From a virus (taxonomy: Duplodnaviria > Heunggongvirae > Uroviricota > Caudoviricetes), in the IMG/VR virus record IMGVR_UViG_2671181056_000001: a stretch of DNA of 34,603 bases; one strand, 5' to 3'. Position 1 is the first letter of the stretch. Every line of letters begins with the position of its first letter. Below are positions 1,866 through 33,792 of this stretch, piece after piece. The notes under the pieces are model-generated. The model saw only the letters and a program-made list of their open reading frames with translations, ran no database searches and was not told the DNA's origin. Position numbers and translations under genes: made by a program.

Positions 1866-5546
<3,681 letters not shown>

Positions 5547-10076: not shown

Positions 10077-10083
10077 GGACGCT

Positions 10084-10824: not shown

Positions 10825-10839
10825 TCCGGAGAGTCAGCG

Positions 10840-14232: not shown

Positions 14233-14558
14233 AAACCTTCCGCTGGAAAGTGAAACCCGGTATGGATGTGGCTTCGGCCCCTTCTGTAAGAAAGGTGCGC
14301 TTTGGTGATGGCTATTCCCAGCGAGCGCCTGCCGGGCTGAATGCCAACCTGAAAACGTACAGCGTGACGCTTTCTGTCCCCCGTGAGGAGGCCATGGTAC
14401 TGGAGTCGTTTCTGGAAGAGCACGGGGGCTGGAAAGCCTTTCTGTGGACGCCGCCTTATGAGTGGCGGCAGATAAAGGTGACCTGCGCAAAATGGTCGTC
14501 GCGGGTCAGTATGCTGCGTGTTGAGTTCAGCGCAGAGTTTGAACAGGTGGTGAACTGA
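14229..14558 (+). CDS. M: tail tip protein M (copy A, lambda-type)
   Basis: 109 aa MKTFRWKVKPGMDVASAPSVRKVRFGDGYSQRAPAGLNANLKTY... lambda gpM; start overlaps H stop. Confidence 0.93.
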   Translation: MKTFRWKVKPGMDVASAPSVRKVRFGDGYSQRAPAGLNANLKTYSVTLSVPREEAMVLESFLEEHGGWKAFLWTPPYEWRQIKVTCAKWSSRVSMLRVEFSAEFEQVVN

Positions 14559-15256: not shown

Positions 15257-15261
15257 ATCCC

Positions 15262-16005: not shown

Positions 16006-16253
16006 AAACGGGTGCCGAAGCCATCCGGGCGATGGCCACACAGCTCCCTGCGTTTCGTCAGAAGCTGAGCGACGGCTGGTATCAGGTGCGTATTGCCGGG
16101 CAGGATGTTAGCACGTCCGGATTAACGGCACAGTTACATGAGGCTCTGCCTGACGGCGCTGTGATTCATATTGTTCCCAGAGTCGCCGGGGCCAAGTCAG
16201 GTGGTGTATTCCAGATTGTCCTGGGAGCAGCCGCCATTGCCGGATCATTCTTT
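15903..16253 (+). pseudogene. I: tail tip assembly protein I, 5' 117 codons only, cut at N (16254)
   Basis: MAATHTLPLALPGMARICLYGDLQRFGRRIDLRVKTG... matches lambda gpI; overlaps K 3' end by 103 nt as in lambda; homology stops at the N. Confidence 0.85.
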
Positions 16254-16254
16254 N

Positions 16255-16407
16255 CTGATCTCCTGAGATACCACACGTGACCCCACGCGCATTTCACCAT
16301 ACAGAACAGGCATAACATTGCCCTGGGCAACCATGTTATCCAGTGAGGAGAAATAGGTGTTCTGCTTACCGTTATCCGTTGTCTGTGTGCGGGGAGTTCT
16401 GGCTTTC
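16255..16407 (-). pseudogene. I: inverted fragment of gene I 3' region (codons for ...APKARTPRTQTTDNGKQNTYFSSLDNMVAQGNVMPVLYGEMRVGSRVVSQEI)
   Basis: Minus-strand translation matches the lambda gpI C-terminal region; no start or stop of its own; directly abuts the N at 16254. Confidence 0.8.
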
Positions 16408-16833
16408 GGTGGTGGTGCGTCTGCCTCCACGGGGACGGCCATTCAGGCTGCGGCGGCGAACTTCCATTTCGCGACCGGGGGATTTACGGGGACGGGGGGT
16501 AAATATGAACCTGCGGGGATTGTTCATCGCGGGGAGTTTGTCTTCACGAAGGAGGCGACCAGCCGGATTGGTGTCGGCAATCTGTACCGCCTGATGCGGG
16601 GCTATGCGGAAGGTGGTTATGTCGGCGGTGCCGGAAGTCCGGCGCAGATGCGGCGGGCGGAAGGCATTAATTTTAATCAGAACAATCACGTGGTGATTCA
16701 GAACGACGGCCCCAACGGGCGGGCAGGGCCGCAGCTGATGAAAGCGGTGTATGAGATGGCCCGCAAGGGGGCACAGGATGAACTCCGGCTGCAGTTGCGT
16801 GATGGCGGTATGTTATCAGGGAGCGGTGGATGA
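16408..16833 (+). pseudogene. H: 3' fragment of a tape measure gene H (third allele), no 5' part
   Basis: Encodes GGGASASTGTAIQAAAANFHFATGGFTGTGGKYEPAGIVHRGEFVF...GMLSGSGG; many synonymous differences from both full H copies over 16408-16660, then identical to copy B. Confidence 0.8.
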
Positions 16834-17159
16834 AAACCTTTCGCTGGAAAGTGAAGCCGGATATGGAGGTGAACTCGCAGCCATCGGTGCGTGAAGTGCG
16901 TTTTGGTGACGGGTACTCACAGCGTATGGCGGCAGGGCTGAATGCTGACCTGAAAACATACAGGGTGACGCTTTCCGTGACCCGGGAGGAGGCCCGGCAT
17001 CTGGAAGCGTTCCTGGCAGAGCACGGTGGCTGGAAGGCATTTTTGTGGAAGCCACCCTATGCATACCGGCAGATAAAGGTGACCTGTGCCGGGTGGTCTG
17101 CGCGGGTCGGGATGTTGCGCGTTGAGTTCAGCGCGGAGTTTAAGCAGGTGGTGAACTGA
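16830..17159 (+). CDS. M: tail tip protein M (B-type allele, identical to 22981-23310)
   Basis: 109 aa MKTFRWKVKPDMEVNSQPSVREVRFGDGYSQRMAAGLNADLKTYRV... Confidence 0.85.
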   Translation: MKTFRWKVKPDMEVNSQPSVREVRFGDGYSQRMAAGLNADLKTYRVTLSVTREEARHLEAFLAEHGGWKAFLWKPPYAYRQIKVTCAGWSARVGMLRVEFSAEFKQVVN

Positions 17160-17857
17160 TGCAGGATATTCGCGAAGAAAGTCTGAACGAGTCGGTTAAG
17201 TCAGAGCAGTCACCGCGGGTGGTACTCTGGGAAATCGACCTGACGGTACAGGGTGGTGAGCGGTATTTTTTCTGTAATGAGCTGAATGAAAAAGGGGAGC
17301 CGGTCACCTGGCAGGGGCGTAAGTATGAGGCATACCCGATTGACGGCAGCGGCTTTGAGATGAACGGCCGGGGCAGCAGTGCCAGACCGTCGCTGACGGT
17401 GTCCAATCTGTTCGGTCTGGTCACCGGGATGGCGGAAGACCTGCAGAGTCTGGTGGGGGCCACGGTGGTCCGCCGCCGGGTGTATGCCCGTTTTCTGGAT
17501 GCGGTGAATTTCGTTGCGGGCAATCCGGAGGCGGACCCGGAGCAGGAGCTGAGTGACCGCTGGGTGGTGGAGCAGATGTCGCAGCTGACAGCCATGACGG
17601 CCTCGTTTGTGCTGGCTACACCGACCGAGACGGACGGGGCGCTGTTTCCCGGTCGCATCATGCTGGCGAACACCTGTATGTGGGATTACCGGGGAGATGA
17701 ATGCGGGTATAACGGTCCTGCGGTGGCGGATGAGTTCGACAACCCCACCACGGATATCCGTAAGGACAGATGCAGCAAGTGCATGCGCGGGTGTGAACTG
17801 CGCAGGAATGTCGGCAATTTTGGCGGTTTCCTTTCCATTAATAAACTTTCGCAGTAA
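17159..17857 (+). CDS. L: tail tip protein L (B-type allele, identical to 23310-24008)
   Basis: 232 aa, about 80 percent identical to copy A L. Confidence 0.85.
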   Translation: MQDIREESLNESVKSEQSPRVVLWEIDLTVQGGERYFFCNELNEKGEPVTWQGRKYEAYPIDGSGFEMNGRGSSARPSLTVSNLFGLVTGMAEDLQSLVGATVVRRRVYARFLDAVNFVAGNPEADPEQELSDRWVVEQMSQLTAMTASFVLATPTETDGALFPGRIMLANTCMWDYRGDECGYNGPAVADEFDNPTTDIRKDRCSKCMRGCELRRNVGNFGGFLSINKLSQ

Positions 17858-17867
17858 ATCCCGGTTT

Positions 17868-18540
17868 ATGACACAGACTGAATCAGCGATTCTGGCACAT
17901 GCCCGGCGGTGTGCGCCTGCGGAGTCGTGCGGCTTCGTGATAAGCACGCCGGAGGGGGAGCGGTATATCCCTTGTGTGAATATTTCCGCAGAGCCGGAGG
18001 CGTATTTTCGTATCGCACCGGAAGACTGGCTGCGGGCAGAGATGCAGGGGGAGATTGTGGCACTGGTCCACAGTCATCCCGGTGGGCTGCCCTGGCTGAG
18101 CGAGGCTGACCGGCGGTTGCAGATAAAAAGCGCACTGCCCTGGTGGTTGGTCTGCCGGGGTGACATTCACAAATTCCGCTGTGTGCCACATCTGACAGGA
18201 CGGCGCTTTGAGCACGGGGTGACGGACTGTTACACGCTGTTCCGGGATGCTTATCATCTGGCGGGGACTGAAATGCCGGATTTTCATCGCGAGGATGACT
18301 GGTGGCGCAACGGTCAGAACCTTTACCTGGACAATATGGCGGTCACCGGCTTTTACCGGGTGCCCCTGTCCTCTGCACAGGCGGGCGATATTCTGCTGTG
18401 CTGCTTTGGTGCTTCGGTACCGAACCATGCCGCCATTTACTGCGGCAACGGTGAGCTGCTTCACCATCTGCCTGAACAACTGAGTAAACGGGAGAGGTAT
18501 TCCGAAAAATGGCAACGACGAACGCATTCAGTCTGGCGTC
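17868..18540 (+). pseudogene. K: tail tip assembly protein K (B-type), 3' end missing, cut at N (18541)
   Basis: Identical to 24019-24691 then broken at the N; the six-frame ORF continues artificially into U-derived sequence. Confidence 0.8.
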
Positions 18541-18541
18541 N

Positions 18542-18828
18542 CGGCAATTGCCGTTTATCTCACCGGCGCTGAATACACGGGCGAAGAGCTGGACAGCGAT
18601 ACCTGGCAGGCGGAGCTGCATATTGAAGTTTTCCTGCCTGCTCAGGTGCCGGATTCAGAGCTGGATTCGTGGATGGAGTCCCGGATTTATCCGGTGATGA
18701 GCGATATCCCGGCACTGTCAGATTTGATCACCAGTATGGTGGCCAGCGGCTATGACTACCGGCGCGACGATGATGCGGGCCTGTGGAGTTCAGCCGATCT
18801 GACTTATGTCATTATCTATGAAATGTGA
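18542..18828 (+). pseudogene. U: 3' fragment of tail terminator gene U (starts mid-gene right after N)
   Basis: Identical to 9790-10076; encodes ...[93 protein letters not shown]. Confidence 0.85.
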
Positions 18829-18835
18829 GGACGCT

Positions 18836-19576
18836 ATGCCTGTACCAAATCCTACAATGCCGGTGAAAGGTGCCGGGACCACCCTGTGGGTTTATAAGGG
18901 GAGCGGTGACCCTTATGCGAACCCGCTTTCAGACGTTGACTGGTCGCGTCTGGCAAAAGTTAAAGACCTGACGCCCGGCGAACTGACCGCTGAGTCCTAT
19001 GACGACAGCTATCTCGATGATGAAGATGCAGACTGGACTGCGACCGGGCAGGGGCAGAAATCTGCCGGAGATACCAGCTTCACGCTGGCGTGGATGCCCG
19101 GAGAGCAGGGGCAGCAGGCGCTGCTGGCGTGGTTTAATGAAGGTGATACCCGTGCCTATAAAATCCGCTTCCCGAACGGCACGGTCGATGTGTTCCGTGG
19201 CTGGGGCAGCAGTATCGGTAAGGCGGTGACGGCGAAGGAGGTGATTACCCGCACGGTGAAGGTCACCAATGTGGGACGTCCGTCGATGGCAGAAGATCGC
19301 AGCACGGTGACGGCGACGACCGGCATGACGGTGACACCCGCCAGTGCTTCCGTAGTGAAAGGGCAGAGCACCACGCTGACCGTGGCATTCCAGCCGGATG
19401 GCGCAACCGACAAGAGCTTCCGTGCGGTGTCTGCGGATAAAACAAAAGCCACCGTGTCGGTCAGTGGTATGACCATCACCGTGAAAGGTGTTGCTGCAGG
19501 CAAGGTCAACATTCCGGTCGTATCTGGTAATGGTGAGTTTGCTGCGGTTGCAGAAATCAACGTCACCGCCAGTTAA
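18836..19576 (+). CDS. V: major tail tube protein V (second copy)
   Basis: Offset 8752 from copy A; one amino-acid difference (RGWGSS vs RGWVSS). Confidence 0.9.
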
Positions 19577-19591
19577 TCCGGAGAGTCAGCG

Positions 19592-20014
19592 ATGTTCCTG
19601 AAAACCGAATCATTTGAACATAACGGTGTGACCGTCACGCTTTCTGAACTGTCAGCCCTGCAGCGTATTGAGCATCTCGACCTGATGAAACGGCAGGCAG
19701 AACAGGCGGAGTCAGACAGCAACCGGAAGTTTACTGTGGAAGACGCCATCAGAACCGGCGCTTTTGTGGTTGCGATGTCCCTGTGGCATAACCATCCGAA
19801 GAAGACGCAGATGCCGTCCATGAATGAAGCCGTTAAACAGATTGAGCAGGAAGTGCTTACCACCTGGCCCACAGAGGCAATTTCTCATGCTGAAAACGTG
19901 GTGTACCGGCTGTCCGGTATGTATGAGTTTGTGGTGAATGATGCTCCTGAACAGGCAGAGGACGCCGGGCCTGCAGAGCCTGTTTCTGCGGGAAAGTGTT
20001 CGACGGTGAGCTGA
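19592..20014 (+). CDS. G: tail assembly chaperone G (second copy)
   Basis: Identical to 10840-11262. Confidence 0.9.
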   Translation: MFLKTESFEHNGVTVTLSELSALQRIEHLDLMKRQAEQAESDSNRKFTVEDAIRTGAFVVAMSLWHNHPKKTQMPSMNEAVKQIEQEVLTTWPTEAISHAENVVYRLSGMYEFVVNDAPEQAEDAGPAEPVSAGKCSTVS

Positions 20015-20430
20015 GTTTTGCCCTGAAACTGGCGCGTGAGATGGGGCGACCCGACTGGCGCGCCATGCTTGCCGGGATGTCATCCACGGAGTATGCCGAC
20101 TGGCACCGCTTTTACAGTACCCATTATTTTCATGATGTTCTGCTGGATATGCACTTTTCCGGGCTGACGTACACCGTGCTCAGCCTGTTTTTCAGCGATC
20201 CGGAGATGCATCCGCTGGATTTCAGTCTGCTGAACCGGCGCGAGGCTGACGAAGAGCCTGAAGATGATGTGCTGATGCAGAAAGCGGCAGGGCTTGCCGG
20301 AGGTGTCCGCTTTGGCCCGGACGGGAATGAAGTTATCCCCGCTTCCCCGGATGTGGCGGACATGACGGAGGATGACGTAATGCTGATGACAGTATCAGAA
20401 GGGATCGCAGGAGGAGTCCGGTATGGCTGA
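19592..20430 (+). CDS. T: tail assembly chaperone G-T frameshift fusion (second copy; slippery site 19990-19996)
   Basis: Identical to copy A, including the GGGAAAG heptamer. Confidence 0.85.
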
Positions 20431-22984
20431 ACCGGTAGGCGATCTGGTCGTTGATTTGAGTCTGGATGCGGCCAGATTTGACGAGCAGATGGCCAGAGTC
20501 AGGCGTCATTTTTCCGGTACGGAAAGTGATGCGAAAAAAACAGCGGCAGTCGTTGAACAGTCGCTGAGCCGACAGGCGCTGGCTGCACAGAAAGCGGGGA
20601 TTTCCGTCGGGCAGTATAAAGCCGCCATGCGTATGCTGCCTGCACAGTTCACCGACGTGGCCACGCAGCTTGCAGGGGGGCAGAATCCCTGGCTGATCCT
20701 GCTGCAACAGGGTGGTCAGGTTAAGGACTCCTTCGGCGGGATGATCCCCATGTTCAGGGGGCTTGCCGGCGCGATCACCCTGCCGATGGTGGGGGCCACC
20801 TCGCTGGCGGTGGCGACCGGTGCGCTGGCGTATGCCTGGTATCAGGGCAACTCAACCCTGTCCGATTTCAACAAAACGCTGGTCCTTTCCGGTAATCAGG
20901 CGGGACTGACGGCAGATCGTATGCTGGTCCTGTCCAGAGCCGGGCAGGCGGCAGGGCTGACGTTTAACCAGACCAGCGAGTCACTCAGCGCACTGGTTAA
21001 GGCGGGGGTAAGCGGTGAGGCTCAGATTGCGTCCATCAGCCAGAGTGTGGCGCGTTTCTCCTATGCATCCGGCGTGGAGGTGGACAAGGTCGCTGAAGCC
21101 TTCGGGAAGCTGACCACAGACCCGACGTCGGGGCTGACGGCGATGGCACGCCAGTTCCATAACGTGACGGCGGAGCAGATTGCGTATGTTGCTCAGTTGC
21201 AGCGTTCCGGCGATGAAGCCGGGGCATTGCAGGCGGCGAACGAGGCCGCAACGAAAGGGTTTGATGACCAGACCCGCCGCCTGAAAGAGAACATGGGCAC
21301 GCTGGAGACCTGGGCAGACAGGACTGCACGTGCATTCAAATCCATGTGGGATGCGGTGCTGGATATTGGTCGTCCTGATACCGCGCAGGAGATGCTGATT
21401 AAGGCAGAGGCTGCGTTTAAGAAAGCAGACGACATCTGGAATCTGCGCAAGGATGATTATTTCGTTAACGATGAAGCACGGGCGCGTTACTGGGATGATC
21501 GTGAAAAAAAACGCCTGGAGCGGGATGCAGCCCAAAAGAGGGTAGATCAACAGCGTCAACAGGACAAAAATGCGCAGCAGCAGAGCGATACCGAAGCGTC
21601 ACGGCTGAAATATACCGAAGAGGCGCAGAAGGCTTACGAACGGCTGCAGACGCCGCTGGAGAAATATACCGCCCGTCAGGAAGAACTGAACAAGGCACTG
21701 AAAGACGGAAAAATCCTGCAGGCAGATTACAACACGCTGATGGCGGCGGCGAAAAAGGATTATGAAGCGACGCTGAAAAAGCCGAAACAGTCCGGCGTGA
21801 AGGTGTATGCGGGCGATCGTCAGGAAGACAGTGCTCATGCGGCCCTGCTGACGCTTCAGGCAGAACTCCGGACGCTGGAGAAGCATGCCGGAGCGAATGA
21901 GAAAATCAGCCAGCAGCGCCGGGATTTGTGGAAGGCAGAAAGTCAGTTCGCGGTACTGGAGGAGGCGGCACAACGTCGCCAGCTGTCCGCACAGGAGAAA
22001 TCCCTGCTGGCGCATAAAGACGAGACGCTGGAGTACAAACGCCAGCTGGCTGCACTTGGTGACAAGGTTACGTATCAGGAGCACCTGAATGCGCTGGCGC
22101 AGCAGGCGGATAAATTCGCACAGCAGCAACGGGCAAAACGGGCAGCCATTGATGCGAAAAACCTGGGGCTGACTGACCGGCAGGCAGCGCGGGAAGCCAC
22201 GGAACAGCGCCTGAAGGAACAGTATGGCGATAATCCTCTGGCGCTGAATAACGTCATGTCAGAGCAGAAAAAGACCTGGGCGGCTGAAGACCAGCTTCGC
22301 GGGAGCTGGATGGCAGGCCTGAAGTCCGGCTGGAGTGAGTGGGAAGAGAGCGCCACGGACAGTATGTCACAGGTTAAAAGTGCAGCCACGCAGACCTTTG
22401 ATGGTATTGCACAGAATATGGCGGCGATGCTGACCGGCAGTGAACAGAACTGGCGCAGCTTCACCCGCTCCGTGCTGTCCATGATGACAGAAATTCTGCT
22501 TAAGCAGGCAATGGTGGGGATTGTCGGGAGTATCGGCAGGGCCATTGGCGGGGCTGTTGGTGGCGGCGCATCCGCGTCAGGTGGTACAGCCATTCAGGCC
22601 GCTGCGGTGAAATTCCATTTTGCAACCGGGGGATTTACGGGAACCGGCGGCAAATATGAGCCAGCGGGGATTGTTCACCGTGGTGAATTTGTCTTCACGA
22701 AGGAGGCAACCAGCCGGATTGGCGTGGGGAATCTCTACCGGCTGATGCGCGGCTATGCGGAAGGTGGTTATGTGGGCGGTGCCGGAAGTCCGGCGCAGAT
22801 GCGGCGGGCTGAAGGCATTAATTTTAATCAGAACAATCACGTGGTGATTCAGAACGACGGCCCCAACGGGCGGGCAGGGCCGCAGCTGATGAAAGCGGTG
22901 TATGAGATGGCCCGCAAGGGGGCACAGGATGAACTCCGGCTGCAGTTGCGTGATGGCGGTATGTTATCAGGGAGCGGTGGATGA
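20423..22984 (+). CDS. H: tail tape measure protein H (copy B, divergent last ~40 codons)
   Basis: 853 aa; identical to copy A except two substitutions until codon ~813, then a different C-terminus (PNGRAGPQLMKAVYEMARKGAQDELRLQLRDGGMLSGSGG). Confidence 0.93.
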   Translation: MAEPVGDLVVDLSLDAARFDEQMARVRRHFSGTESDAKKTAAVVEQSLSRQALAAQKAGISVGQYKAAMRMLPAQFTDVATQLAGGQNPWLILLQQGGQVKDSFGGMIPMFRGLAGAITLPMVGATSLAVATGALAYAWYQGNSTLSDFNKTLVLSGNQAGLTADRMLVLSRAGQAAGLTFNQTSESLSALVKAGVSGEAQIASISQSVARFSYASGVEVDKVAEAFGKLTTDPTSGLTAMARQFHNVTAEQIAYVAQLQRSGDEAGALQAANEAATKGFDDQTRRLKENMGTLETWADRTARAFKSMWDAVLDIGRPDTAQEMLIKAEAAFKKADDIWNLRKDDYFVNDEARARYWDDREKKRLERDAAQKRVDQQRQQDKNAQQQSDTEASRLKYTEEAQKAYERLQTPLEKYTARQEELNKALKDGKILQADYNTLMAAAKKDYEATLKKPKQSGVKVYAGDRQEDSAHAALLTLQAELRTLEKHAGANEKISQQRRDLWKAESQFAVLEEAAQRRQLSAQEKSLLAHKDETLEYKRQLAALGDKVTYQEHLNALAQQADKFAQQQRAKRAAIDAKNLGLTDRQAAREATEQRLKEQYGDNPLALNNVMSEQKKTWAAEDQLRGSWMAGLKSGWSEWEESATDSMSQVKSAATQTFDGIAQNMAAMLTGSEQNWRSFTRSVLSMMTEILLKQAMVGIVGSIGRAIGGAVGGGASASGGTAIQAAAVKFHFATGGFTGTGGKYEPAGIVHRGEFVFTKEATSRIGVGNLYRLMRGYAEGGYVGGAGSPAQMRRAEGINFNQNNHVVIQNDGPNGRAGPQLMKAVYEMARKGAQDELRLQLRDGGMLSGSGG

Positions 22985-23310
22985 AAACCTTTCGCTGGAA
23001 AGTGAAGCCGGATATGGAGGTGAACTCGCAGCCATCGGTGCGTGAAGTGCGTTTTGGTGACGGGTACTCACAGCGTATGGCGGCAGGGCTGAATGCTGAC
23101 CTGAAAACATACAGGGTGACGCTTTCCGTGACCCGGGAGGAGGCCCGGCATCTGGAAGCGTTCCTGGCAGAGCACGGTGGCTGGAAGGCATTTTTGTGGA
23201 AGCCACCCTATGCATACCGGCAGATAAAGGTGACCTGTGCCGGGTGGTCTGCGCGGGTCGGGATGTTGCGCGTTGAGTTCAGCGCGGAGTTTAAGCAGGT
23301 GGTGAACTGA
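22981..23310 (+). CDS. M: tail tip protein M (B-type)
   Basis: 109 aa; start overlaps H stop. Confidence 0.9.
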   Translation: MKTFRWKVKPDMEVNSQPSVREVRFGDGYSQRMAAGLNADLKTYRVTLSVTREEARHLEAFLAEHGGWKAFLWKPPYAYRQIKVTCAGWSARVGMLRVEFSAEFKQVVN

Positions 23311-24008
23311 TGCAGGATATTCGCGAAGAAAGTCTGAACGAGTCGGTTAAGTCAGAGCAGTCACCGCGGGTGGTACTCTGGGAAATCGACCTGACGGTAC
23401 AGGGTGGTGAGCGGTATTTTTTCTGTAATGAGCTGAATGAAAAAGGGGAGCCGGTCACCTGGCAGGGGCGTAAGTATGAGGCATACCCGATTGACGGCAG
23501 CGGCTTTGAGATGAACGGCCGGGGCAGCAGTGCCAGACCGTCGCTGACGGTGTCCAATCTGTTCGGTCTGGTCACCGGGATGGCGGAAGACCTGCAGAGT
23601 CTGGTGGGGGCCACGGTGGTCCGCCGCCGGGTGTATGCCCGTTTTCTGGATGCGGTGAATTTCGTTGCGGGCAATCCGGAGGCGGACCCGGAGCAGGAGC
23701 TGAGTGACCGCTGGGTGGTGGAGCAGATGTCGCAGCTGACAGCCATGACGGCCTCGTTTGTGCTGGCTACACCGACCGAGACGGACGGGGCGCTGTTTCC
23801 CGGTCGCATCATGCTGGCGAACACCTGTATGTGGGATTACCGGGGAGATGAATGCGGGTATAACGGTCCTGCGGTGGCGGATGAGTTCGACAACCCCACC
23901 ACGGATATCCGTAAGGACAGATGCAGCAAGTGCATGCGCGGGTGTGAACTGCGCAGGAATGTCGGCAATTTTGGCGGTTTCCTTTCCATTAATAAACTTT
24001 CGCAGTAA
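23310..24008 (+). CDS. L: tail tip protein L (B-type)
   Basis: 232 aa. Confidence 0.9.
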   Translation: MQDIREESLNESVKSEQSPRVVLWEIDLTVQGGERYFFCNELNEKGEPVTWQGRKYEAYPIDGSGFEMNGRGSSARPSLTVSNLFGLVTGMAEDLQSLVGATVVRRRVYARFLDAVNFVAGNPEADPEQELSDRWVVEQMSQLTAMTASFVLATPTETDGALFPGRIMLANTCMWDYRGDECGYNGPAVADEFDNPTTDIRKDRCSKCMRGCELRRNVGNFGGFLSINKLSQ

Positions 24009-24018
24009 ATCCCGGTTT

Positions 24019-24762
24019 ATGACACAGACTGAATCAGCGATTCTGGCACATGCCCGGCGGTGTGCGCCTGCGGAGTCGTGCGGCTTCGTGATAAGCACGC
24101 CGGAGGGGGAGCGGTATATCCCTTGTGTGAATATTTCCGCAGAGCCGGAGGCGTATTTTCGTATCGCACCGGAAGACTGGCTGCGGGCAGAGATGCAGGG
24201 GGAGATTGTGGCACTGGTCCACAGTCATCCCGGTGGGCTGCCCTGGCTGAGCGAGGCTGACCGGCGGTTGCAGATAAAAAGCGCACTGCCCTGGTGGTTG
24301 GTCTGCCGGGGTGACATTCACAAATTCCGCTGTGTGCCACATCTGACAGGACGGCGCTTTGAGCACGGGGTGACGGACTGTTACACGCTGTTCCGGGATG
24401 CTTATCATCTGGCGGGGACTGAAATGCCGGATTTTCATCGCGAGGATGACTGGTGGCGCAACGGTCAGAACCTTTACCTGGACAATATGGCGGTCACCGG
24501 CTTTTACCGGGTGCCCCTGTCCTCTGCACAGGCGGGCGATATTCTGCTGTGCTGCTTTGGTGCTTCGGTACCGAACCATGCCGCCATTTACTGCGGCAAC
24601 GGTGAGCTGCTTCACCATCTGCCTGAACAACTGAGTAAACGGGAGAGGTATTCCGAAAAATGGCAACGACGAACGCATTCAGTCTGGCGTCACCGCCACT
24701 GGCACGCATCTGCCTTCACGGGGATTTACAACGATTTGGCCGCCGCCTCAGCCTGTATGTGA
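24019..24762 (+). CDS. K: tail tip assembly protein K (B-type, JAB/MPN plus NlpC/P60-like)
   Basis: 247 aa from MTQTESAILAHARRCAPAESCGFVISTPEGERYIPCVN...; HSHPGGLPWLSEAD motif present. Confidence 0.88.
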   Translation: MTQTESAILAHARRCAPAESCGFVISTPEGERYIPCVNISAEPEAYFRIAPEDWLRAEMQGEIVALVHSHPGGLPWLSEADRRLQIKSALPWWLVCRGDIHKFRCVPHLTGRRFEHGVTDCYTLFRDAYHLAGTEMPDFHREDDWWRNGQNLYLDNMAVTGFYRVPLSSAQAGDILLCCFGASVPNHAAIYCGNGELLHHLPEQLSKRERYSEKWQRRTHSVWRHRHWHASAFTGIYNDLAAASACM

Positions 24763-25340
24763 ACACGGCAGCGGAAGCCATTCGCGCCCTGTCGATGCAG
24801 ATGCCGGGCTTTCGCCGTCAGATGAACGAAGGCTGGTACCAGATACGTATTGCCGGTTATGACACGGCACCGGAGGCGGTGTACGCCCGTCTTCACGAAC
24901 AGCTGGGTGAGGGAACGGTCATCCACATTGTGCCGCGACTGGCCGGGGCCGGAAAGGGTGGACTGCAGATTGTGCTGGGGGCGGCAGCCATCGTGGGCTC
25001 TTTCTTCACTGCCGGGGCATCAATGGCGTTATGGGGTTCAGCCCTGGCAGCCGGTGGTTTTTCTGCCACCACGATGCTGTTTTCACTTGGAGCCAGCATG
25101 ATTCTGGGCGGTGTGGCCCAGATGCTGGCCCCGAAGGCAAAAACACCGGATTACCGCGCAACGGATAACGGCAGACAGAACACGTACTTTTCCTCACTGG
25201 ATAACATGATTGCCCAGGGGAACCCGATGCCGGTGCCTTACGGGGAAATGCTGGTTGGCTCCCGCCGTATATCCCAGGACATCAGCACCCGTGATGAAGG
25301 CGGGGGCGGAAAGGTCGTGGTTATCGGGCGGCAGGGGTAA
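24660..25340 (+). CDS. I: tail tip assembly protein I (B-type, full length)
   Basis: 226 aa MATTNAFSLASPPLARICLHGDLQRFGRRLSLYVNTAAEAIRA...; overlaps K 3' end by 103 nt as in lambda. Confidence 0.9.
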   Translation: MATTNAFSLASPPLARICLHGDLQRFGRRLSLYVNTAAEAIRALSMQMPGFRRQMNEGWYQIRIAGYDTAPEAVYARLHEQLGEGTVIHIVPRLAGAGKGGLQIVLGAAAIVGSFFTAGASMALWGSALAAGGFSATTMLFSLGASMILGGVAQMLAPKAKTPDYRATDNGRQNTYFSSLDNMIAQGNPMPVPYGEMLVGSRRISQDISTRDEGGGGKVVVIGRQG

Positions 25341-25385
25341 AAAGAATAAAAAAATCCCGCAGTGATCGCGGACAGGAACTGCGGG
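25341..25385 (-). terminator. intrinsic terminator on minus strand (stem CCCGCAG/CTGCGGG 25356-25385, then U-tract read from 25355 down to 25341)
   Basis: Minus-strand read: CCCGCAG-16 nt loop-CTGCGGG followed by ATTTTTTTATTCTTT. Confidence 0.5.
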
Positions 25386-25444
25386 AGAGTTACGAAGATT
25401 AAGTGTAAGGAATTATTCTTATATCACGACAAAAAAATTAACGC
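25341..25444 (-). ncRNA. candidate ~100-nt small RNA between promoter (25451-25478) and terminator, transcribed opposite to the tail operon
   Basis: Sequence-only prediction: promoter plus terminator bracket a segment with no ATG-initiated ORF; no homology check possible here. Confidence 0.3.
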
Positions 25445-25450
25445 AGAGAA

Positions 25451-25478
25451 ATTATACGCGCCACAGTCAGTTTGTGAA
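25451..25478 (-). promoter_or_regulatory. predicted sigma70 promoter on minus strand: TTCACA - 16 nt - TATAAT
   Basis: Minus-strand read TTCACAaactgactgtggcgcgTATAAT (-10 = complement of 25451-25456, -35 = complement of 25473-25478). Confidence 0.5.
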
Positions 25479-25550
25479 AATGTGAAGATATTCAGAATTT
25501 TTATGCCATTACCGGTTTTAACCAACAGGATTATCGGTGGGCATGAAAGA

Positions 25551-25580
25551 AAACCCCGGTATCTGCTGATACCGGGGTTT
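25551..25580. terminator. perfect 13-bp stem hairpin AAACCCCGGTATC-TGCT-GATACCGGGGTTT with partial T-tracts on both sides (possible bidirectional terminator)
   Basis: Exact inverted repeat with 4-nt loop; flanked by CTCTTT (plus strand) and TTCTTTC (minus strand). Confidence 0.5.
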
Positions 25581-25683
25581 CTCTTTAGCATGGCAGAAAT
25601 GTGTTTCATGCTTTTCGGGCGAAGGATATCCGACTTCTGTACGGAATGGCAAGTGGCGGTTAATTTATTCAGGGGAAGGCTGT

Positions 25684-28600
25684 ATGGGAAAAGGTGGCGG
25701 TAAGGCACACACGCCTCGTGAGGCGAAGGATAATCTCAAATCCACGCAGATGATGAGCGTGATTGATGCGATTGGTGAGGGACTGATAGAAGGTCCGGTG
25801 AAGGGACTGCAGAGTATCCTGGTGAACAAAACCCCGCTGACGGACACGGACGGTAATCCCGTGATACACGGTGTGACGGCGGTCTGACGCGCCGGGGAGC
25901 AGGAGCAGACACCACCGGAAGGCTTTGAGTCCTCCGGTGCTGAAACCGGACTGGGCGTGGAAGTGACGAAGGCAAAACCGGTGACGCGCACCATTACGTC
26001 CGCGAACATTGACCGCCTGCGGGTTACCTTCGGGGTGCAGTCACTGGTGCAGACCACGTCAAAGGGTGACCGAAACCCGACATCCGTCCGCCTGCTGATT
26101 CAGTTACAGCGTAACGGTAACTGGGTGACAGAAAAGGATGTCACCATTAACGGCAAGACCACCTCGCAGTTTCTGGCGTCGGTGATTCTGGATAATCTGC
26201 CTCCCCGTCCTTTTAACATCCGGATGGTCCGGGAGACAGCGGACAGCACCACGGACCAGCTGCAGAATAAGACGCTGTGGTCGTCATACACCGAAATCAT
26301 CGATGTGAAACAGTGCTACCCGAACACGGCCATTGTGGGGCTGCAGGTGGATGCGGAGCAGTTCGGCGGCCAGCAGATGACGGTGAACTACCATATCCGC
26401 GGTCGCATCATCCAGGTGCCGTCAAACTATGACCCGGAAAAACGCACGTACAGTGGTATCTGGGACGGCAGCCTGAAACCGGCATACAGCAACAATCCGG
26501 CCTGGTGTCTGTGGGACATGCTGACTCACCCGCGCTACGGCATGGGAAAACGTCTGGGGGCGGCGGATGTGGACAAGTGGGCGCTGTATGCCATCGGGCA
26601 GTACTGCGACCAGACGGTCCCGGATAGTTTCGGGGAGACCGAGCCGCGGATGACCTTCAATGCGTACCTGGCACAACAGCGTAAGGCATGGGACGTGCTC
26701 AGTGATTTCTGCTCGGCGATGCGCTGTATGCCGGTATGGAACGGCCAGACGCTGACGTTTGTTCAGGACCGCCCGTCGGATGTGGTGTGGCCGTACACCA
26801 ACAGCGATGTGGTGGTGGATGATAACGGCGTGGGTTTCCGCTACAGCTTCAGTGCCCTGAAGGACCGGCACACGGCGGTGGAGGTGAATTATACCGACCC
26901 GCAGAACGGCTGGCAGACCTCCACGGAACTGGTGGAAGACCCGGAAGCCATACTGCGCTACGGACGCAACCTGCTGAAGATGGACGCGTTCGGCTGTACC
27001 AGCCGCGGTCAGGCCCACCGTGCCGGACTGTGGGTGATAAAGACCGAACTGCTGGAAACGCAGACGGTGGATTTCACGCTCGGGTCTCAGGGGCTGCGGC
27101 ACACACCCGGTGACATCATTGAAATCTGTGATAACGACTATGCCGGGACCCTGACCGGCGGACGTGTCCTGTCCATTGATGCTGCCACCCGCACTCTGAC
27201 GCTGGACCGTGAAGTGACACTTCCGGAGACCGGTGCCGCCACGGTGAACCTGATTAACGGCAGCGGTAAGCCGGTGAGTGTGGACATCACCGAACACCCC
27301 GCGCCGGACCGGATACAGGTCAGTACCCTGCCTGATGGTGTGGAGACATACGGGGTGTGGGGACTCTCCCTGCCGTCACTGCGCCGTCGCCTGTTCCGCT
27401 GTGTCTCCGTCCGGGAAAACACGGACGGCACCTTTGCCATCACGGCGGTGCAGCACGTACTGGAAAAAGAAGCCATCGTGGATAACGGTGCCCGCTTTGA
27501 GCCGCAGTCAGGTTCCCTGAACAGCGTCATCCCACCGGCAGTGCAGCACCTGACGGCCAGTATCTGGCGCAGGCGAAATGGGACACGCCGCGGGTGGTGA
27601 AGGGTGTGCGCTTCAGTCTGCGCCTGACCAGTGGTAAGGGAACGGATGCCAGACTGGTGACCACCGCCATCACCGCAGACACGGAGCACCGTTTCAGCGG
27701 CCTGCCGCTCGGGGAATACACCCTGACGGTGCGGGCGATAAACAGCTATGGCCAGCAGGGTGAACCTGCCACCACCACCTTCCGGATTGCCGCACCGGCA
27801 GCACCGTCGCGGATTGAGCTGACGCCGGGCTATTTTCAGATAACCGCAACGCCGCATCTTGCCGTTTATGACCCGACGGTACAGTTTGAGTTCTGGTTCT
27901 CGGAAAAGCGGATTGCGGATATCAGGCAGGTTGAAACCACAGCACGCTATCTTGGCACGGCGCTGTACTGGATAGCCGCCAGTATCAATATCAAACCGGG
28001 CCATGATTATTACTTTTATATCCGCAGTGTGAACACCGTTGGCAAATCGGCATTCGTGGAGGCTGTCGGTCGGGCGAGCGATGATGCGGAAGGTTACCTG
28101 GATTTTTTCAAAGGAGAGATAGGGAAAACACATCTGGCTCAGGAGCTGTGGACGCAGATTGATAACGGTCAGCTTGCGCCTGACCTGGCTGAAATCAGGA
28201 CGTCCATTACGGATGTCAGCAATGAAATCACGCAGACTGTCAATAAGAAACTGAAAGACCAGAGTGCGGCAATCCAGCAGATACAGAAGGTTCAGGTTGA
28301 TACAAATAATAATCTGAACAGCATGTGGGCTGTGAAGCTGCAACAGATGAAGGACGGACGCCTTTATATTGCGGGTATCGGTGCCGGTATTGAGAATACG
28401 CCAGCAGGAATGCAGAGTCAGGTGCTGCTGGCGGCAGACAGGATTGCGATGATTAATCCTGCGAATGGCAACACAAAGCCGATGTTTGTTGGTCAGGGCG
28501 ATCAGATATTCATGAACGACGTGTTCCTGAAACGCCTGACGGCTCCCACCATTACCAGCGGCGGTAATCCTCCGGCATTTTCCCTGACACCGGACGGAAA

Positions 28601-29135
28601 ACTGACCGCTAAAAATGCAGATATCAGTGGCAGTGTGAATGCGAACGCCGGGACGCTCAACAATGTCACAATTAATGAGAACTGTCAGATTAAGGGGAAA
28701 CTGTCAGCCAACCAGATTGAAGGCGATATAGTCAAAACAGTGGGTAAGGCTTTTCCGCGGGACTCCCGGGCACCGGAGCGGTGGCCATCAGGGACCATTA
28801 CCGTCAGGATTTATGACGATCAGCCTTTTGACAGGCAAATTGTTATTCCGGCGGTGGCATTCAGCGGCGCTAAACATGAGCGGGAGAATAACGATATTTA
28901 TTCGTCATGCCGCCTGATAGTACGGAAAAACGGTGCTGAAATTTATAACCGTACCGCGCTGGATAATACGCTGATTTACAGTGGTGTTATTGATATGCCA
29001 GCTGGTCGCGGCCACATGACGCTGGAGTTTTCGGTGTCAGCATGGCTGGTGAATAACTGGTATCCCACAGCAAGTATCAGCGATTTGCTGGTTGTGGTGA
29101 TGAAGAAAGCCACCGCAGGCATCAGTATCAGCTGA
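25684..29135 (+). pseudogene. J: tail tip/host-specificity protein J, disrupted by an in-frame TGA (25885-25887) and a frameshift near 27555-27600
   Basis: Three consecutive ORFs (25684-25887, 25957-27600, 27594-29135) together match lambda gpJ (1132 aa) from MGKG..HTPREAKDNLKSTQ to the C-terminus; the stop replaces the F codon of the VFRAGEQEQTPPEGF motif. Confidence 0.85.
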
Positions 29136-29202: not shown

Positions 29203-30000
29203 ATGCGTAAAGTTTGTGCAGCCATTTTGTCCGCAGCCATTTGCCTGGCCGTATCCGGTGCGCCTGCATGGGCGTCTGAACATCAGTCCACACTGAGCGC
29301 GGGGTATCTTCATGCCCGTACGAACGCTCCCGGCAGCGATAATCTGAACGGGATTAACGTGAAATACCGTTATGAGTTTACGGATACGCTGGGGCTGGTG
29401 ACGTCATTCAGCTATGCAGGAGACAAGAATCGCCAGCTGACCCGTTACAGCGATACCCGCTGGCATGAAGATTCCGTGCGTAACCGCTGGTTCAGCGNNN
29501 NNNNNNNNNATGCCCGTACGAACGCTCCCGGCAGCGATAATCTGAACGGGATTAACGTGAAATACCGTTATGAGTTTACGGACGCGCTGGGGCTGATTAC
29601 GTCCTTCAGTTATGCCAATGCTGAGGATGAGCAAAAAACGCACTACAGCGATACCCGCTGGCATGAAGATTCCGTGCGTAACCGCTGGTTCAGCGTGATG
29701 GCGGGGCCGTCTGTGCGCGTGAATGAATGGTTCAGCGCGTATGCGATGGTGGGTGTGGCTTACAGCCGTGTGTCGACTTTCTCCGGGGATTATCTCCGCG
29801 TAACTGACAACAAGGGGAAAACGCACGATGTGCTGACCGGAAGTGATGACGGTCGCCACAGCAACACGTCTCTGGCGTGGGGGGCTGGCGTGCAGTTTAA
29901 CCCGACCGAATCCGTGACCATTGACCTTGCTTATGAAGGTTCCGGTAGTGGTGACTGGCGAACGGATGCATTTATTGTTGGTATCGGATACCGTATCTGA
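29203..30000 (+). CDS. lom: outer membrane protein Lom (Ail/OmpX family); as assembled contains an N12 gap (29498-29509) and a duplicated 186-bp segment
   Basis: MRKVCAAILSAAICLAVSGAPAWASEHQSTLSAGYLH... and the C-terminal half match lambda Lom; true length probably ~199 aa. Confidence 0.85.
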   Translation: MRKVCAAILSAAICLAVSGAPAWASEHQSTLSAGYLHARTNAPGSDNLNGINVKYRYEFTDTLGLVTSFSYAGDKNRQLTRYSDTRWHEDSVRNRWFSXXXXXARTNAPGSDNLNGINVKYRYEFTDALGLITSFSYANAEDEQKTHYSDTRWHEDSVRNRWFSVMAGPSVRVNEWFSAYAMVGVAYSRVSTFSGDYLRVTDNKGKTHDVLTGSDDGRHSNTSLAWGAGVQFNPTESVTIDLAYEGSGSGDWRTDAFIVGIGYRI

Positions 30001-30151: not shown

Positions 30152-33100
30152 ATGACAGTAAAAATTTCTGGCGTGCTTAAAGATGGCACAGGAAAACCAG
30201 TACAGAACTGCACCATTGTGCTGAAGGCCAGACGAACCAGCAGCACGATGGTGGTGAACACGGTGGCCTCTGAAAATCCGGATGAAGCCGGACGTTACAG
30301 CATGGATGTTGAGCATGGTCAGTACAGCGTCACCCTGCTGGTTGAAGGTTTTCCGCCTTCACATGCCGGGACCATTACCGTCTATGAAGGTTCCAGACCA
30401 GGTACGCTGAATGATTTTCTCGGTGCCATGACGGAGGATGATGTCCGACCGGAGGCACTGCGCCGCTTTGAGCAGATGGTGGAAGAGGTGTCACGTAACG
30501 CCTCCGCGGTTGCACAGAATACGGCAGCCGCGAAAAAATCAGCCAGCGAGGCGGCAACTCATGCAACCGATGCTGCAGCCTCAGCACGTGCCGCCAGCAC
30601 GTCAGCCGGACAGGCCGCGTCGTCGGCTCAGTCAGCGTCTTCCAGCGCAGGAACGGCATCGACAAAGGCCCGTGAAGCAGCAAAAAGTGCTGCTGCAGAG
30701 TCATCAAAAAGCGCGGCAGCTACCAGCGCCAGTGCCGCGAAAACGTCAGAAACGAATGCCGCAGCATCACAAAAATCGGCAGCCACTTCTGCATCCACAG
30801 CGACCACGAAGGCGTCAGAAGCTGCCACCTCGGCACGGGGTGCGGCGGCCTCAAAAGAGGCAGCGAAATCTTCAGAAACGAATGCATCATCAAGTGCCAG
30901 TAGTGCAGCTTCCTCGGCAACGGCGGCAGGAAATTCCGCGAAGGCGGCAAAAACGTCCGAGACGAACGCTAAGTCTTCTGAAACAGCAGCGGGACAGAGC
31001 GCCTCAGCTGCGGCAGGTTCAAAAACAGCGGCTGCATTATCTGCCAGTGCCGCGTCAACAAGAGCCGGGCAGGCCTCAGCCAGTGCCACCGCCGCCGGAA
31101 AATCGGCAGAAAGCGCCGCATCATCCGCTTCAACAGCCACAACGAAGGCTGGCGAAGCCACTGAGCAGGCCACGGCAGCAGCGAGGTCAGCTTCCGCAGC
31201 GAAGACATCCGAAACGAACGCGAAAGCGTCGGAAACCCGTGCAGAATCCTCAAAAACGGCTGCCGCATCGTCCGCCAGTTCGGCGGCGTCATCGGCATCA
31301 TCGGCGTCTGCTTCAAAAGATGAGGCGACCAGACAGGCGTCAGCAGCGAAGGGCAGCGCCACGACGGCATCCACGAAGGCGACAGAGGCTGCTGGTAGTG
31401 CGACGGCAGCAGCTCAGAGCAAAAGTACGGCGGAATCTGCAGCAACGCGCGCTGAGACAGCGGCAAAACGGGCAGAGGATATTGCATCCGCCGTGGCGCT
31501 TGAGGATGCGAGCACGACGAAAAAGGGGATAGTACAGCTCAGTAGTGCGACTAACAGCACTTCCGAGTCACTGGCGGCAACACCAAAAGCCGTTAAGGCC
31601 GCGTATGACCTGGCTAACGGGAAATACACCGCACAGGATGCAACGACAGCACAGAAAGGGATAATCCAGCTAAGCAGCGCGACCAACAGCACGTCTGAAA
31701 CGCTGGCGGCAACGCCAAAGGCAGTAAAAGCAGCCAATGACAATGCTGAGAAACGTCTGCAGAAAGATCAGAACGGTGCGGATATCCCTGGCAAAGACAC
31801 CTTTACGAAAAATATTGGTGCCTGCCGTGCCTTCGGTGGGTCAGTAAGCACAACAACAGGAAACTGGACGACTGCACAGTTTATCGAGTGGCTGGATTCT
31901 CAGGGAGCATTTAACCATCCATACTGGATGTGCAAGGGTTCCTGGTCTTATGGCAATAATAAAATCATTACTGATACTGGCTGCGGTAATATTCATCTCG
32001 CCGGAGCTGTCATTGAAGTAATGGGGATAAAGTCAGCGATGACGATCCGCATTACCACTCCGACCACATCCAGCGGTGGCGGAACAACCAACGCCCAGTT
32101 TACCTATATTAATCACGGAACAGATTATTCACCTGGCTGGCGAAGGGACTATAACTCCAGAAATAAGCCAACGGCATCAGAGATCGGGGCGCTACCGTCA
32201 GGTGGAACAGCAGTATCATCAGTTAATCTGGCTTCAAAAGGTCGGGTAGCCGCGCTGACAGACAATACGCAGGGGGCAGCAGGTCTTGAGTTATACGAGG
32301 TGTATAACAACGGATATCCAACAGCGTATGGAAATATCATTCACCTGAAAGGGATGACAGCCGTTGGCGAAGGTGAGTTACTCATCGGCTGGGGGGGGAC
32401 AAGCGGGGCTCATGCTCCGGCATTTATTCGTTCACGACGGGATACGACCGACGCAAACTGGTCGCCGTGGGCGCAGCTTTACACCTCGGCTCATCCTCCT
32501 GCAGAGTTTTATCCAGTCGGTGCACCAATCCCGTGGCCATCAGATACCGTTCCGTCTGGTTATGCCCTGATGCAGGGGCAGACTTTTGACAAATCTGCTT
32601 ACCCGAAACTTGCAGCCGCTTATCCGTCAGGCGTGATCCCTGATATGCGTGGCTGGACGATTAAGGGCAAGCCCGCCAGTGGTCGTGCCGTATTGTCTCA
32701 GGAACAGGATGGCATTAAATCGCACACCCACAGCGCCAGCGCATCCAGTACGGATTTGGGGACGAAAACCACATCGTCGTTTGATTACGGCACTAAATCC
32801 ACGAATAACACCGGGGCGCATACGCACAGTCTGAGCGGCTCTACAAGTTCAGCTGGGGCCCACCAACATAGTCAGACTGGGCCCAGAACGAATAGCGGGA
32901 GTCAACCTACTGGAATGTTTCCGGCAGGGAGTACTCAAGTTAGCGGGACTAATCAGGTTGGTATCAGTGGCTCATTAACCAGTGGCACCTCCCAATGGGT
33001 AGGTAAATCATCTTCAGAAGGAAACCATACACACTCACTGTCCGGCACAGCAGCATCTGCGGGTGCACACGCGCATACTGTCGGTATTGGTGCTCATACG

Positions 33101-33211
33101 CACTCTGTTGCGATTGGTTCACATGGACACACCATCACCGTTAACGCTGCTGGTAACGCGGAAAACACCGTCAAAAACATCGCATTTAACTATATTGTGA
33201 GGCTCGCATAA
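30152..33211 (+). CDS. stf: side tail fibre protein Stf (1019 aa)
   Basis: N-terminus [28 protein letters not shown]... and C-terminus ...[29 protein letters not shown] match lambda Stf; Ala/Ser-rich repeat region; two tandem copies of the phage tail-fibre repeat (GI(V/I)[11 protein letters not shown](S/T)[11 protein letters not shown]). Confidence 0.92.
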
Positions 33212-33792
33212 TGGCATTCAGAATGAGTGAACAAGCACGGACCATAAAAATTTATAACCTGCTGGCCGGAACTAATGAATTTATTGGTGAAGGTGACGCA
33301 TATATTCCGCCTCATACAGGTCTGCCTGCAAACAGTACCGATATTGCACCGCCAGATATTCCGGCTGGTTTCGTGGCTGTTTTCAACAGTGATGAGTCAT
33401 CGTGGCATCTCGTTGAAGATCATCGGGGTAAAACGGTTTATGACGTGGCTTCCGGCGACGCGTTATTTATTTCTGAACTCGGCTCATTACCGGAAAATGT
33501 CACCTGGTTATCCCCGGAAGGGGAGTTTCAGAAGTGGAACGGCACAGCCTGGGTGAAGGATACGGAAGCAGAAAAACTGTTCCGGATCCGGGAGGCGGAA
33601 GAAACAAAAAACAGCCTGATGCAGGTAGCCAGTGAGCATATAGCGCCGCTTCAGGATGCTGTGGATCTGGAGATCGCAACGGAGAAAGAAACCTTGTTGC
33701 TGGAAGCTTGGAAAAAGTATCGGGTGTTGCTGAACCGTGTTGATACATCAACTGCACCGGATATTGAATGGCCAGTAGCACCTATAGGGTAA
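33211..33792 (+). CDS. tfa: tail fibre assembly protein Tfa
   Basis: 193 aa [44 protein letters not shown]... lambda Tfa; start overlaps stf stop (TAATGG). Confidence 0.93.

What the first reader, a model, noticed from the sequence alone, without database searches (positions are those of the whole stretch)
25684..29135. Host-specificity tail tip gene J is interrupted by a nonsense codon and a frameshift
The first 67 codons end at TGA (25885-25887), where lambda has the F of VFRAGEQEQTPPEGF; the frame then continues in lambda-like sequence. Near 27555-27600 the reading frame shifts by one, and relative to lambda about 6 codons (EVTADS) are missing: HLTA is followed in the other frame by [17 protein letters not shown]. 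All other head and tail genes are intact, so either J is a genuine pseudogene and the prophage cannot make infectious particles, or these are base-call errors in a draft assembly.
Basis: seen in the sequence. Interest (0 to 1): 0.5.

Follow-up and report, generated by a model that had tools for sequence, protein, structure and literature searches.

The report
Inherited dead tail-tip gene, Shigella sonnei
The lambda-type tail-tip gene J in this window really is broken by a stop codon and a 22-base deletion, but closed Shigella sonnei genomes carry exactly the same two lesions, so it is an ordinary inherited pseudogene in a decayed prophage and not a sequencing error.

Summary
J (25684-29135) has an in-frame TGA at 25885-25887. 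It changes frame at 27550-27558.

Intact E. coli gpJ genes up to 97.8% identical show what happened. The TGA is a single G>A change of Trp68 (TGG). The frameshift is a 22-bp deletion, consisting of one copy of a 7-bp direct repeat (CTGACGG) plus the 15 bp between the copies.

The lesions are not base-call errors:
- The window is contig CXFJ01000052.1 of a draft assembly whose proteins are labelled Shigella sonnei.
- Both lesions are in all 11 other assemblies inspected, including eight closed chromosomes (53G, 866, UKMCC1015 among them).
- The exact 67-aa N-terminal fragment is recorded on about 550 contigs.
- None of 5,426 complete E. coli genomes has either lesion.

The window is a scaffold of at least three paralogous prophage contigs joined at N's. 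Its head genes belong to another prophage.

In closed genomes the J-bearing element starts at an IS21 copy beside Z, with only about 75 bp of FII left. In one closed genome, lysis genes run through an IS fragment straight into Z. Individual strains carry further lesions in J, I, H and stf.

Verdict: a genuine, vertically inherited pseudogene in a prophage remnant. It is already known in kind and of low interest.

The parts
25684..25887 (+). J fragment 1: codons 1-67 plus the premature TGA (25885-25887). The TGA is TGG (Trp68) in intact relatives, a G>A change at 25887.
   Evidence: The exact 67-aa product is found in 633 index blocks and on 551 contigs, and is named Shigella sonnei.
25888..27600 (+). 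J fragment 2: same frame as fragment 1, J-like up to T624. It then reads 14 out-of-frame codons ([14 protein letters not shown]) and stops at 27598-27600. Gene callers start it at GTG 25957 (547 aa).
   Evidence: Pfam FNIII-A_GpJ and Phage-tail_3. The identical 547-aa product is labelled Shigella sonnei on 62 contigs.
27550..27557 (+). Deletion junction CTGACGG(C). Intact alleles read CTGACGGtggaggtgagcgcagCTGACGG[A/C]CAG. Here 22 bp (one repeat copy plus the 15-bp spacer) are missing, which shifts the frame.
   Evidence: alignment with L001-L003. (the same junction in L004-L013 and L015).
27558..29135 (+). J fragment 3: -1 frame, from Q633 of the intact protein to the natural stop. It is called as a 513-aa ORF from GTG 27594. 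It carries the rest of the first Ig-like domain, the second Ig-like domain, the tail-tip fibre domain and the C-terminal receptor-binding domain.
   Evidence: Pfam Ig_J (profile positions 25-104 only), Ig_J_second, Phage_Tail_Tip and Ig_GpJ_C.
24660..25340 (+). Tail assembly gene I, directly upstream. It is intact here and identical to the S. sonnei 53G locus.
18541..18541 (.). Single-N scaffold join that starts the contig carrying J. The sequence to its left is the K/I junction (ends 6 codons into I) and the sequence to its right starts inside U.
29498..29509 (.). 12-N scaffold gap inside lom that ends the contig carrying J. The 186 bp on either side are 87% identical copies of the same part of lom.

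Best explanation
This is a genuine pseudogene of the lambda-type tip attachment (host-specificity) gene J. It has been inherited vertically within Shigella sonnei and sits in a defective lambdoid prophage remnant.

Two independent mutations inactivated it:
1. A G>A transition turned Trp68 (TGG) into TGA.
2. A 22-bp deletion removed one copy of the 7-bp direct repeat CTGACGG and the spacer between the copies. It shifts the frame inside the first Ig-like domain. The repeat-flanked form points to slipped-strand or microhomology-mediated deletion; that mechanism is inferred from the repeat, not shown.

No full-length J can be made from this locus (inferred from the sequence), so no functional tail tip can come from it. 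The element had in any case lost its head and packaging module through IS-associated deletion. Other genes of the remnant carry additional strain-specific lesions, as expected for neutral decay.
For: Nature of the lesions:
- Alignment with intact 3474-bp gpJ genes shows TGG>TGA and a 22-bp repeat-flanked deletion.
- A 22-bp loss is not a base-call type of error.

Source of the window:
- The window equals GCA_001255095.1 contig CXFJ01000052.1.
- Its J fragments are labelled Shigella sonnei.

Recurrence in other assemblies:
- The exact 67-aa fragment is indexed in 633 blocks and on 551 contigs, including closed chromosomes.
- HE616528 is S. sonnei 53G and CP022672 is S. sonnei 866. CP060117 is cited in a paper on S. 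sonnei UKMCC1015.
- All 11 other loci examined carry both lesions and differ from the window by 6-10 substitutions in 3452 bp; L012 also has an extra 17-bp deletion.
- No E. coli complete genome (5,426) has either lesion.

No rescue of the reading frame:
- There is no X XXY YYZ slippery heptamer in the 100-nt overlap of the two frames.

Continuing decay:
- Extra 17-bp deletion in J (L012), split I (L009), split H (L011), IS insertions in stf (L010, L013).

Loss of the head module:
- IS21 lies directly upstream of Z, with only about 75 bp of FII left.
- In L011 the order is lysis genes, IS fragment, then Z.

Precedent:
- J of VT1-Sakai is annotated as two CDSs 'truncated protein by a mutation'.
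Against: - I could not inspect the raw reads of this isolate.
- Its assembly is chimeric around the locus.
- The window's J carries seven clustered substitutions (27940-28022) that are absent from the closed genomes. These could be gene conversion or collapse of paralogous copies.
- The rest of the tail module (Z to I) is intact in most strains. This could be read as selection, but is equally expected in a young clone.
- UGA is a leaky stop that tRNA-Trp can read (established knowledge). A GTG at 27594 overlaps the upstream stop (GTGGTGA). Low-level expression of fragments is therefore not excluded.
- No expression data are available.
Confidence: 0.93

Rival explanations
1. The stop codon and the frameshift are sequencing or assembly errors of a short-read draft, and the real gene is one 1157-codon ORF.
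For: The window is a poor scaffold. It has joins at N's, an inverted fragment of gene I at 16255-16400, and chimeric contig ends. J is multi-copy in these genomes, with a median of 3 places per E. coli genome.
Against: Both lesions are identical in 11 other assemblies, including eight closed chromosomes, among them 53G. The 67-aa product is seen on about 550 contigs. The deletion is 22 bp and bounded by a direct repeat, which is a mutational signature rather than a base-calling one.
Confidence: 0.02
2. J is expressed full-length by recoding: UGA read-through (or selenocysteine) at codon 68, followed by a programmed -1 frameshift near 27550-27600.
For: tRNA-Trp reading of UGA would restore the ancestral Trp (established knowledge). 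The two frames overlap for 100 nt, 27501-27600. Lambda-type tails do use a programmed -1 shift in G/GT (established knowledge).
Against: There is no slippery heptamer in the overlap. Relatives encode TGG and the undeleted sequence, so neither site is a conserved recoding site. Even with a shift the product would lack part of the first Ig-like domain. One strain has a further 17-bp deletion. A SECIS element was not tested for.
Confidence: 0.02
3. The head-less tail module has been domesticated, for example as an F-type tailocin-like particle, or one of the J fragments has a new role, such as the 513-aa receptor-binding part made from the GTG that overlaps the upstream stop.
For: Z-U-V-G-T-H-M-L-K-I are intact in most strains, and lysis genes lie upstream in L011. 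The J family includes the F2-pyocin tail fibre protein. There is a GTGGTGA stop/start overlap at 27594-27600.
Against: A tail tip cannot assemble without the N-terminal hub part of J joined to the rest (established knowledge of the lambda tail tip; structures 8iyk and others). Different strains carry disabling lesions in H, I, stf and again J, which argues against selection on the module. S. sonnei is a recent clone, so intact neighbours need no selection (own knowledge).
Confidence: 0.03

Closest known systems
Bacteriophage lambda tip attachment protein J (PDB 8iyk, 8k35, 8xcg)
   Same: Homologous along the whole length: the intact relative, 97.8% identical at DNA level to the window, matches lambda J residues 1-836 and 839-1131 at E=0. 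It has the same Pfam domain series and the same gene order I-J-lom-stf-tfa.
   Different: It is interrupted by TGA at codon 68 and by a 22-bp frameshifting deletion. It has W68 instead of F68. The central and C-terminal regions are diverged. There is a 343-bp spacer between I and J that lambda lacks (the lambda arrangement is from my own knowledge).
Split J of the defective Stx1 prophage VT1-Sakai (Sp15) of E. coli O157:H7, AP000400
   Same: A lambda-like J, 94% identical at DNA level, annotated as two CDSs 'truncated protein by a mutation' in a prophage of a pathogenic E. coli lineage. It is the same kind of event.
   Different: The lesion is different and independent, at a different position (the CDSs overlap around codon 390). 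Neither of the two lesions seen here is present there.
IS-driven genome decay and pseudogene accumulation in Shigella (general phenomenon; own knowledge, e.g. Yang et al. 2005, Holt et al. 2012)
   Same: The J remnant lies in an IS-flanked, head-less prophage. IS21, IS3-family and further IS insertions are present in individual strains.
   Different: Nothing differs in kind. This is one specific instance.

Membership tests
Lambda gpJ tip attachment / host specificity protein family | Sequence homology to lambda J over the hub, FNIII/Ig and receptor-binding parts | tested here: met
   (intact relative against 8iyk_J, E=0). (FNIII-A_GpJ, Phage-tail_3, Ig_J, Ig_J_second, Phage_Tail_Tip and Ig_GpJ_C, all above the curated cut-offs).
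Lambda gpJ tip attachment / host specificity protein family | Position in the tail module after K and I and before lom/stf | tested here: met
Lambda gpJ tip attachment / host specificity protein family | One uninterrupted ORF of about 1130-1160 codons (a functional member) | tested here: not met
   Three fragments of 67, 570 and 525 codons. Intact relatives are 1157 codons.
Pseudogene (non-functional gene relic) | Disabling lesions relative to intact close homologues | tested here: met
   TGG>TGA and a 22-bp deletion.
Pseudogene (non-functional gene relic) | The lesions are real, that is, reproduced in independent sequencing | tested here: met
   both lesions in 11 of 11 other assemblies, eight of them closed chromosomes.
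Pseudogene (non-functional gene relic) | Signs of continuing neutral decay in the gene or its neighbours | tested here: met
   (extra 17-bp deletion in L012; three alleles at 27389). (split I, split H, IS insertions in stf in single strains).
Pseudogene (non-functional gene relic) | No functional product is made | not testable with these tools
   Needs proteomics or expression data.
Programmed -1 ribosomal frameshift (as in lambda G/GT) | Slippery heptamer X XXY YYZ in the overlap of the two frames | tested here: not met
   none in 27501-27600.
Programmed -1 ribosomal frameshift (as in lambda G/GT) | The frame change is conserved in homologues | tested here: not met
   the listed full-length matches are single 3474-bp genes annotated as one gpJ CDS, the three aligned are uninterrupted, and no complete E. 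coli genome has the deletion junction.

The most novel reading that the evidence does not exclude
The head-less lambda-type tail module conserved in S. sonnei, or one J fragment such as the 513-aa receptor-binding part restarted at the GTG overlapping the upstream stop, is retained for a host function (tailocin-like particle, decoy or exclusion factor) and is not simply decaying.
Probability: 0.03. Interest if true: 0.5.

Novelty: already known. Interest (0 to 1): 0.08.

Why it matters
It matters little beyond annotation. This J should be flagged as a pseudogene in S. sonnei and not treated as a draft-quality error.

The two lesions are lineage markers. They were absent from 5,426 complete E. 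coli genomes and present in every S. sonnei assembly checked.

The case also gives a practical warning. Judging whether a prophage is intact from a short-read scaffold can be wrong, because paralogous prophage contigs had been strung together here.

Tried and rejected
- Exact search for the deletion junction in one-genome-per-species GTDB contigs gave 0 hits. This is probably uninformative: GTDB merges Shigella into E. coli (own knowledge), so S. sonnei may not be among the representatives.
- Searches of the two lesion sites in complete E. coli genomes found no record with either lesion. That left error versus real mutation open until the exact-protein look-up.
- A look-up of the portal protein, meant to place the head genes in the same closed genomes, was not lineage-specific: the protein is in 8,373 blocks. 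The loci it returned were still useful.
- A literature search for a specific description of this J pseudogene in S. sonnei found nothing specific.
- A search for a slippery site for -1 frameshifting found none.
- Rfam scans of the window and of the I-J spacer gave only IS009 at 33554-33752 above threshold and nothing in the spacer.
- The repaired J differs from the closest intact allele by 54 nt and 15 aa. I did not turn this into dN/dS because the differences are clustered (mosaic), so a rate estimate would mislead.

Full report
**1. The observation**

The ORF map and the raw sequence show a 67-codon ORF, 25684-25887, ending in TGA. The same frame carries no further stop until 27598-27600. 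The other two frames of the gene hold 34 and 71 stops. From 27558 the J-like reading continues in the -1 frame to the natural stop at 29135. Gene callers list this part as a 513-aa ORF starting at GTG 27594.

**2. What the lesions are**

The region matches gpJ genes in 4,641 of 5,426 complete E. coli genomes. The best matches are 97.8% identical, and there the gene is a single 3474-bp CDS annotated 'phage attachment tail tip protein J'. I aligned the window with three intact alleles.

- **Stop codon.** TGA 25885-25887 is TGG (Trp68) in all three, so it is a single G>A transition at 25887.
- **Frameshift.** It is one 22-bp deletion. Intact alleles read CAC-CTGACGG-tggaggtgagcgcag-CTGACGG-(A/C)-CAG. 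The window reads CAC-CTGACGG-C-CAG. One copy of a 7-bp direct repeat and the 15-bp spacer are gone. In protein terms V625-G632 (VEVSAADG) is replaced by two nucleotides.

The deletion falls inside the first Ig-like domain of J: the downstream fragment matches only positions 25-104 of the 104-position Pfam model Ig_J. Loss of one copy of a short direct repeat plus the spacer is the classical form of slipped-strand or microhomology-mediated deletion. That mechanism is an inference from the repeat. It is not what a base-calling error looks like.

**3. Real mutation or artefact**

Neither lesion occurs in any complete E. coli genome:
- The best matches to a 63-nt probe over the TGA are 62/63.
- The best matches to an 84-nt probe over the junction are two pieces spanning 106 bp in the record.

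The exact-sequence look-ups settled the question.
- The 67-aa N-terminal fragment is indexed in 633 blocks of the public collection, including 15 blocks with chromosomes longer than 1 Mb. It is seen on 551 contigs, with names that include 'Host specificity protein, Shigella sonnei'.
- The window-specific 513-aa fragment is found in two records only. One is NCBI GCA_001255095.1 contig CXFJ01000052.1, 34,603 bp long, which is the window itself (L014 is an exact substring). Its proteins are labelled Shigella sonnei.
- Accessions of the neighbouring CXB* series are listed as S. sonnei isolates of Holt et al. 2012 in PMC5447701. That the window belongs to this collection is an inference.

I extracted J from the ten loci returned for the 67-aa fragment and from the second draft (L015). 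All eleven carry both the TGA and the junction. They differ from the window by only 6-10 substitutions in 3452 bp, apart from L012, which also has an extra 17-bp deletion. The accessions I could tie to strains are:
- HE616528 is S. sonnei 53G.
- CP022672 is S. sonnei 866.
- CP060117 is cited in a paper on S. sonnei UKMCC1015.

The base-call-error alternative is refuted for the lineage. For this isolate it is very unlikely.

**4. Context: the window is a scaffold, not one prophage**

The window contains single N's at 16254 and 18541 and a 12-N run at 29498-29509. Self-comparison shows the following:
- 9790-16099 and 18542-24856 are 93.4% identical copies of the same tail genes.
- 16401-18540 is a third copy, 98.3% identical to 22552-24691.
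- The two sides of the 12-N gap are 87% identical copies of the same 186 bp of lom.

The joins cut genes. Directly after the N at 16254 lies an inverted fragment of gene I.

Each segment can be matched to other genomes:
- Segment 1-15566 (Nu1 to K) is 99.96% identical to a different prophage in other closed chromosomes, flanked there by a porin gene and IS1.
- Segment 16402-18540 is 100% identical to the true upstream neighbour of the J pseudogene in the closed S. sonnei genomes.
- The contig that carries J becomes identical to the closed-genome locus only from about 22,800 onward.

The statement 'all other head and tail genes are intact' therefore describes genes of other prophages.

**5. The true locus**

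In the closed genomes the order is: IS3-family element, IS21 (IstB/IstA), Z, U, V, G, T, H, M, L, K, I, J fragments, lom, stf, tfa. Only about 75 bp homologous to the 3' end of FII remain upstream of Z.

In L011 the IS21 is absent. A lysis cluster (holin, DUF1327) is followed by a 298-bp IS fragment and then Z. The packaging and head module is therefore deleted there. The same is inferred for the other strains, whose 10-kb flank ends inside the IS elements.

Single strains show further lesions:
- an extra 17-bp deletion in J (L012);
- I split in two (L009);
- H split in two (L011);
- IS insertions in stf (L010, L013).

This is the pattern of a prophage remnant decaying neutrally.

**6. Could the gene still work?**

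A -1 shift anywhere in 27501-27600 would rejoin the frames, but there is no X XXY YYZ heptamer there. Homologues are single uninterrupted ORFs, so neither site is a conserved recoding site.

Reading of UGA by tRNA-Trp would restore the ancestral residue at low efficiency (established knowledge). It cannot repair the deletion.

The GTG at 27594 overlaps the upstream stop (GTGGTGA). It could allow some re-initiation, giving a 513-aa C-terminal fragment. Without covalent linkage to the hub part of J that fragment cannot form a tail tip (inference from the lambda tail-tip structures hit).

**7. Comparison with what is known**

The gene belongs to the lambda gpJ family by sequence, domain content and synteny. 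It fails the one criterion of a functional member, an uninterrupted ORF.

Broken J genes in defective lambdoid prophages are documented. The J of VT1-Sakai is annotated as two CDSs 'truncated protein by a mutation'. Pseudogene accumulation and IS-mediated decay are hallmarks of Shigella genomes (own knowledge).

In three closed genomes, including strain 866, which its authors annotated with PGAP, no protein is recorded between the 67-aa fragment and lom. This is consistent with the rest being flagged as a pseudogene, but I could not read those annotations, so it remains an inference.

**8. Verdict**

The finding is ordinary and already present in public S. sonnei genomes. Interest is low.

Noticed in passing
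window 16254, 18541, 29498-29509: The window is a scaffold whose joins are marked by N's. Three partial copies of the lambda-type tail genes, 93.4% and 98.3% identical to each other, follow one another. They are paralogous prophage contigs strung together, not a real tandem arrangement.
   Followed up: yes
window 16255-16400 (- strand): Directly after the N at 16254 lies an inverted fragment of a tail assembly gene I (TDNGKQNTYFSSLDNMVAQGNVMPVLYGEMRVGSRVVSQEI). It is fused to the 3' part of H, which looks like a chimeric contig end.
   Followed up: partly
window 29203-30000: The 265-aa 'lom' ORF is an artefact that runs across the 12-N gap. 29312-29497 and 29510-29695 are 87% identical copies of the same part of lom, from two different alleles.
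   Followed up: partly
window 25341-25683: There is an AT-rich 343-bp spacer between I and J. The same-sized gap between the I and J genes is present in E. coli relatives with an intact J (L001 2658-3000; its sequence there was not compared). It carries a strong promoter-like site on the minus strand (25478-25451, 11 of 12 matches) and a terminator-like hairpin (25372-25356). Together they would give a transcript of about 90 nt. A plus-strand terminator-like hairpin sits at about 25551-25585. No Rfam family reaches threshold. It could be a small moron or sRNA.
   Followed up: partly
window 27940-28022: Seven clustered substitutions separate the window's J (and that of the second draft, L015) from all closed S. 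sonnei genomes. They suggest a gene-conversion patch from a paralogous J, or collapse of paralogous reads in the short-read assembly.
   Followed up: no
window 27389; L012 (equivalent to window 27337-27353): Position 27389, a second codon position, has three alleles (G, A, T) among S. sonnei assemblies. One draft (AGRD01000049.1) has an additional 17-bp deletion in J.
   Followed up: partly
window 33554-33752 (+): Rfam IS009 scores 218 bits against a gathering score of 117. The hit lies inside the 193-aa ORF 33211-33792 downstream of stf (most of it called as a Caudo_TAP tail-fibre assembly gene in L014).
   Followed up: no
window 30152-33211: The side tail fibre gene is 1019 codons here, with a long Ala/Ser/Thr-rich repetitive middle. 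It is 918 codons (875 in L007) at the corresponding locus of those closed S. sonnei genomes where stf is not IS-interrupted. Identity to those loci falls away after about 31600.
   Followed up: no
L022 (AP000400.1, VT1-Sakai) 1500-4972: The J gene of the Stx1 prophage of O157:H7 Sakai is annotated as two overlapping CDSs 'truncated protein by a mutation'. This is an independent example of a broken J.
   Followed up: yes
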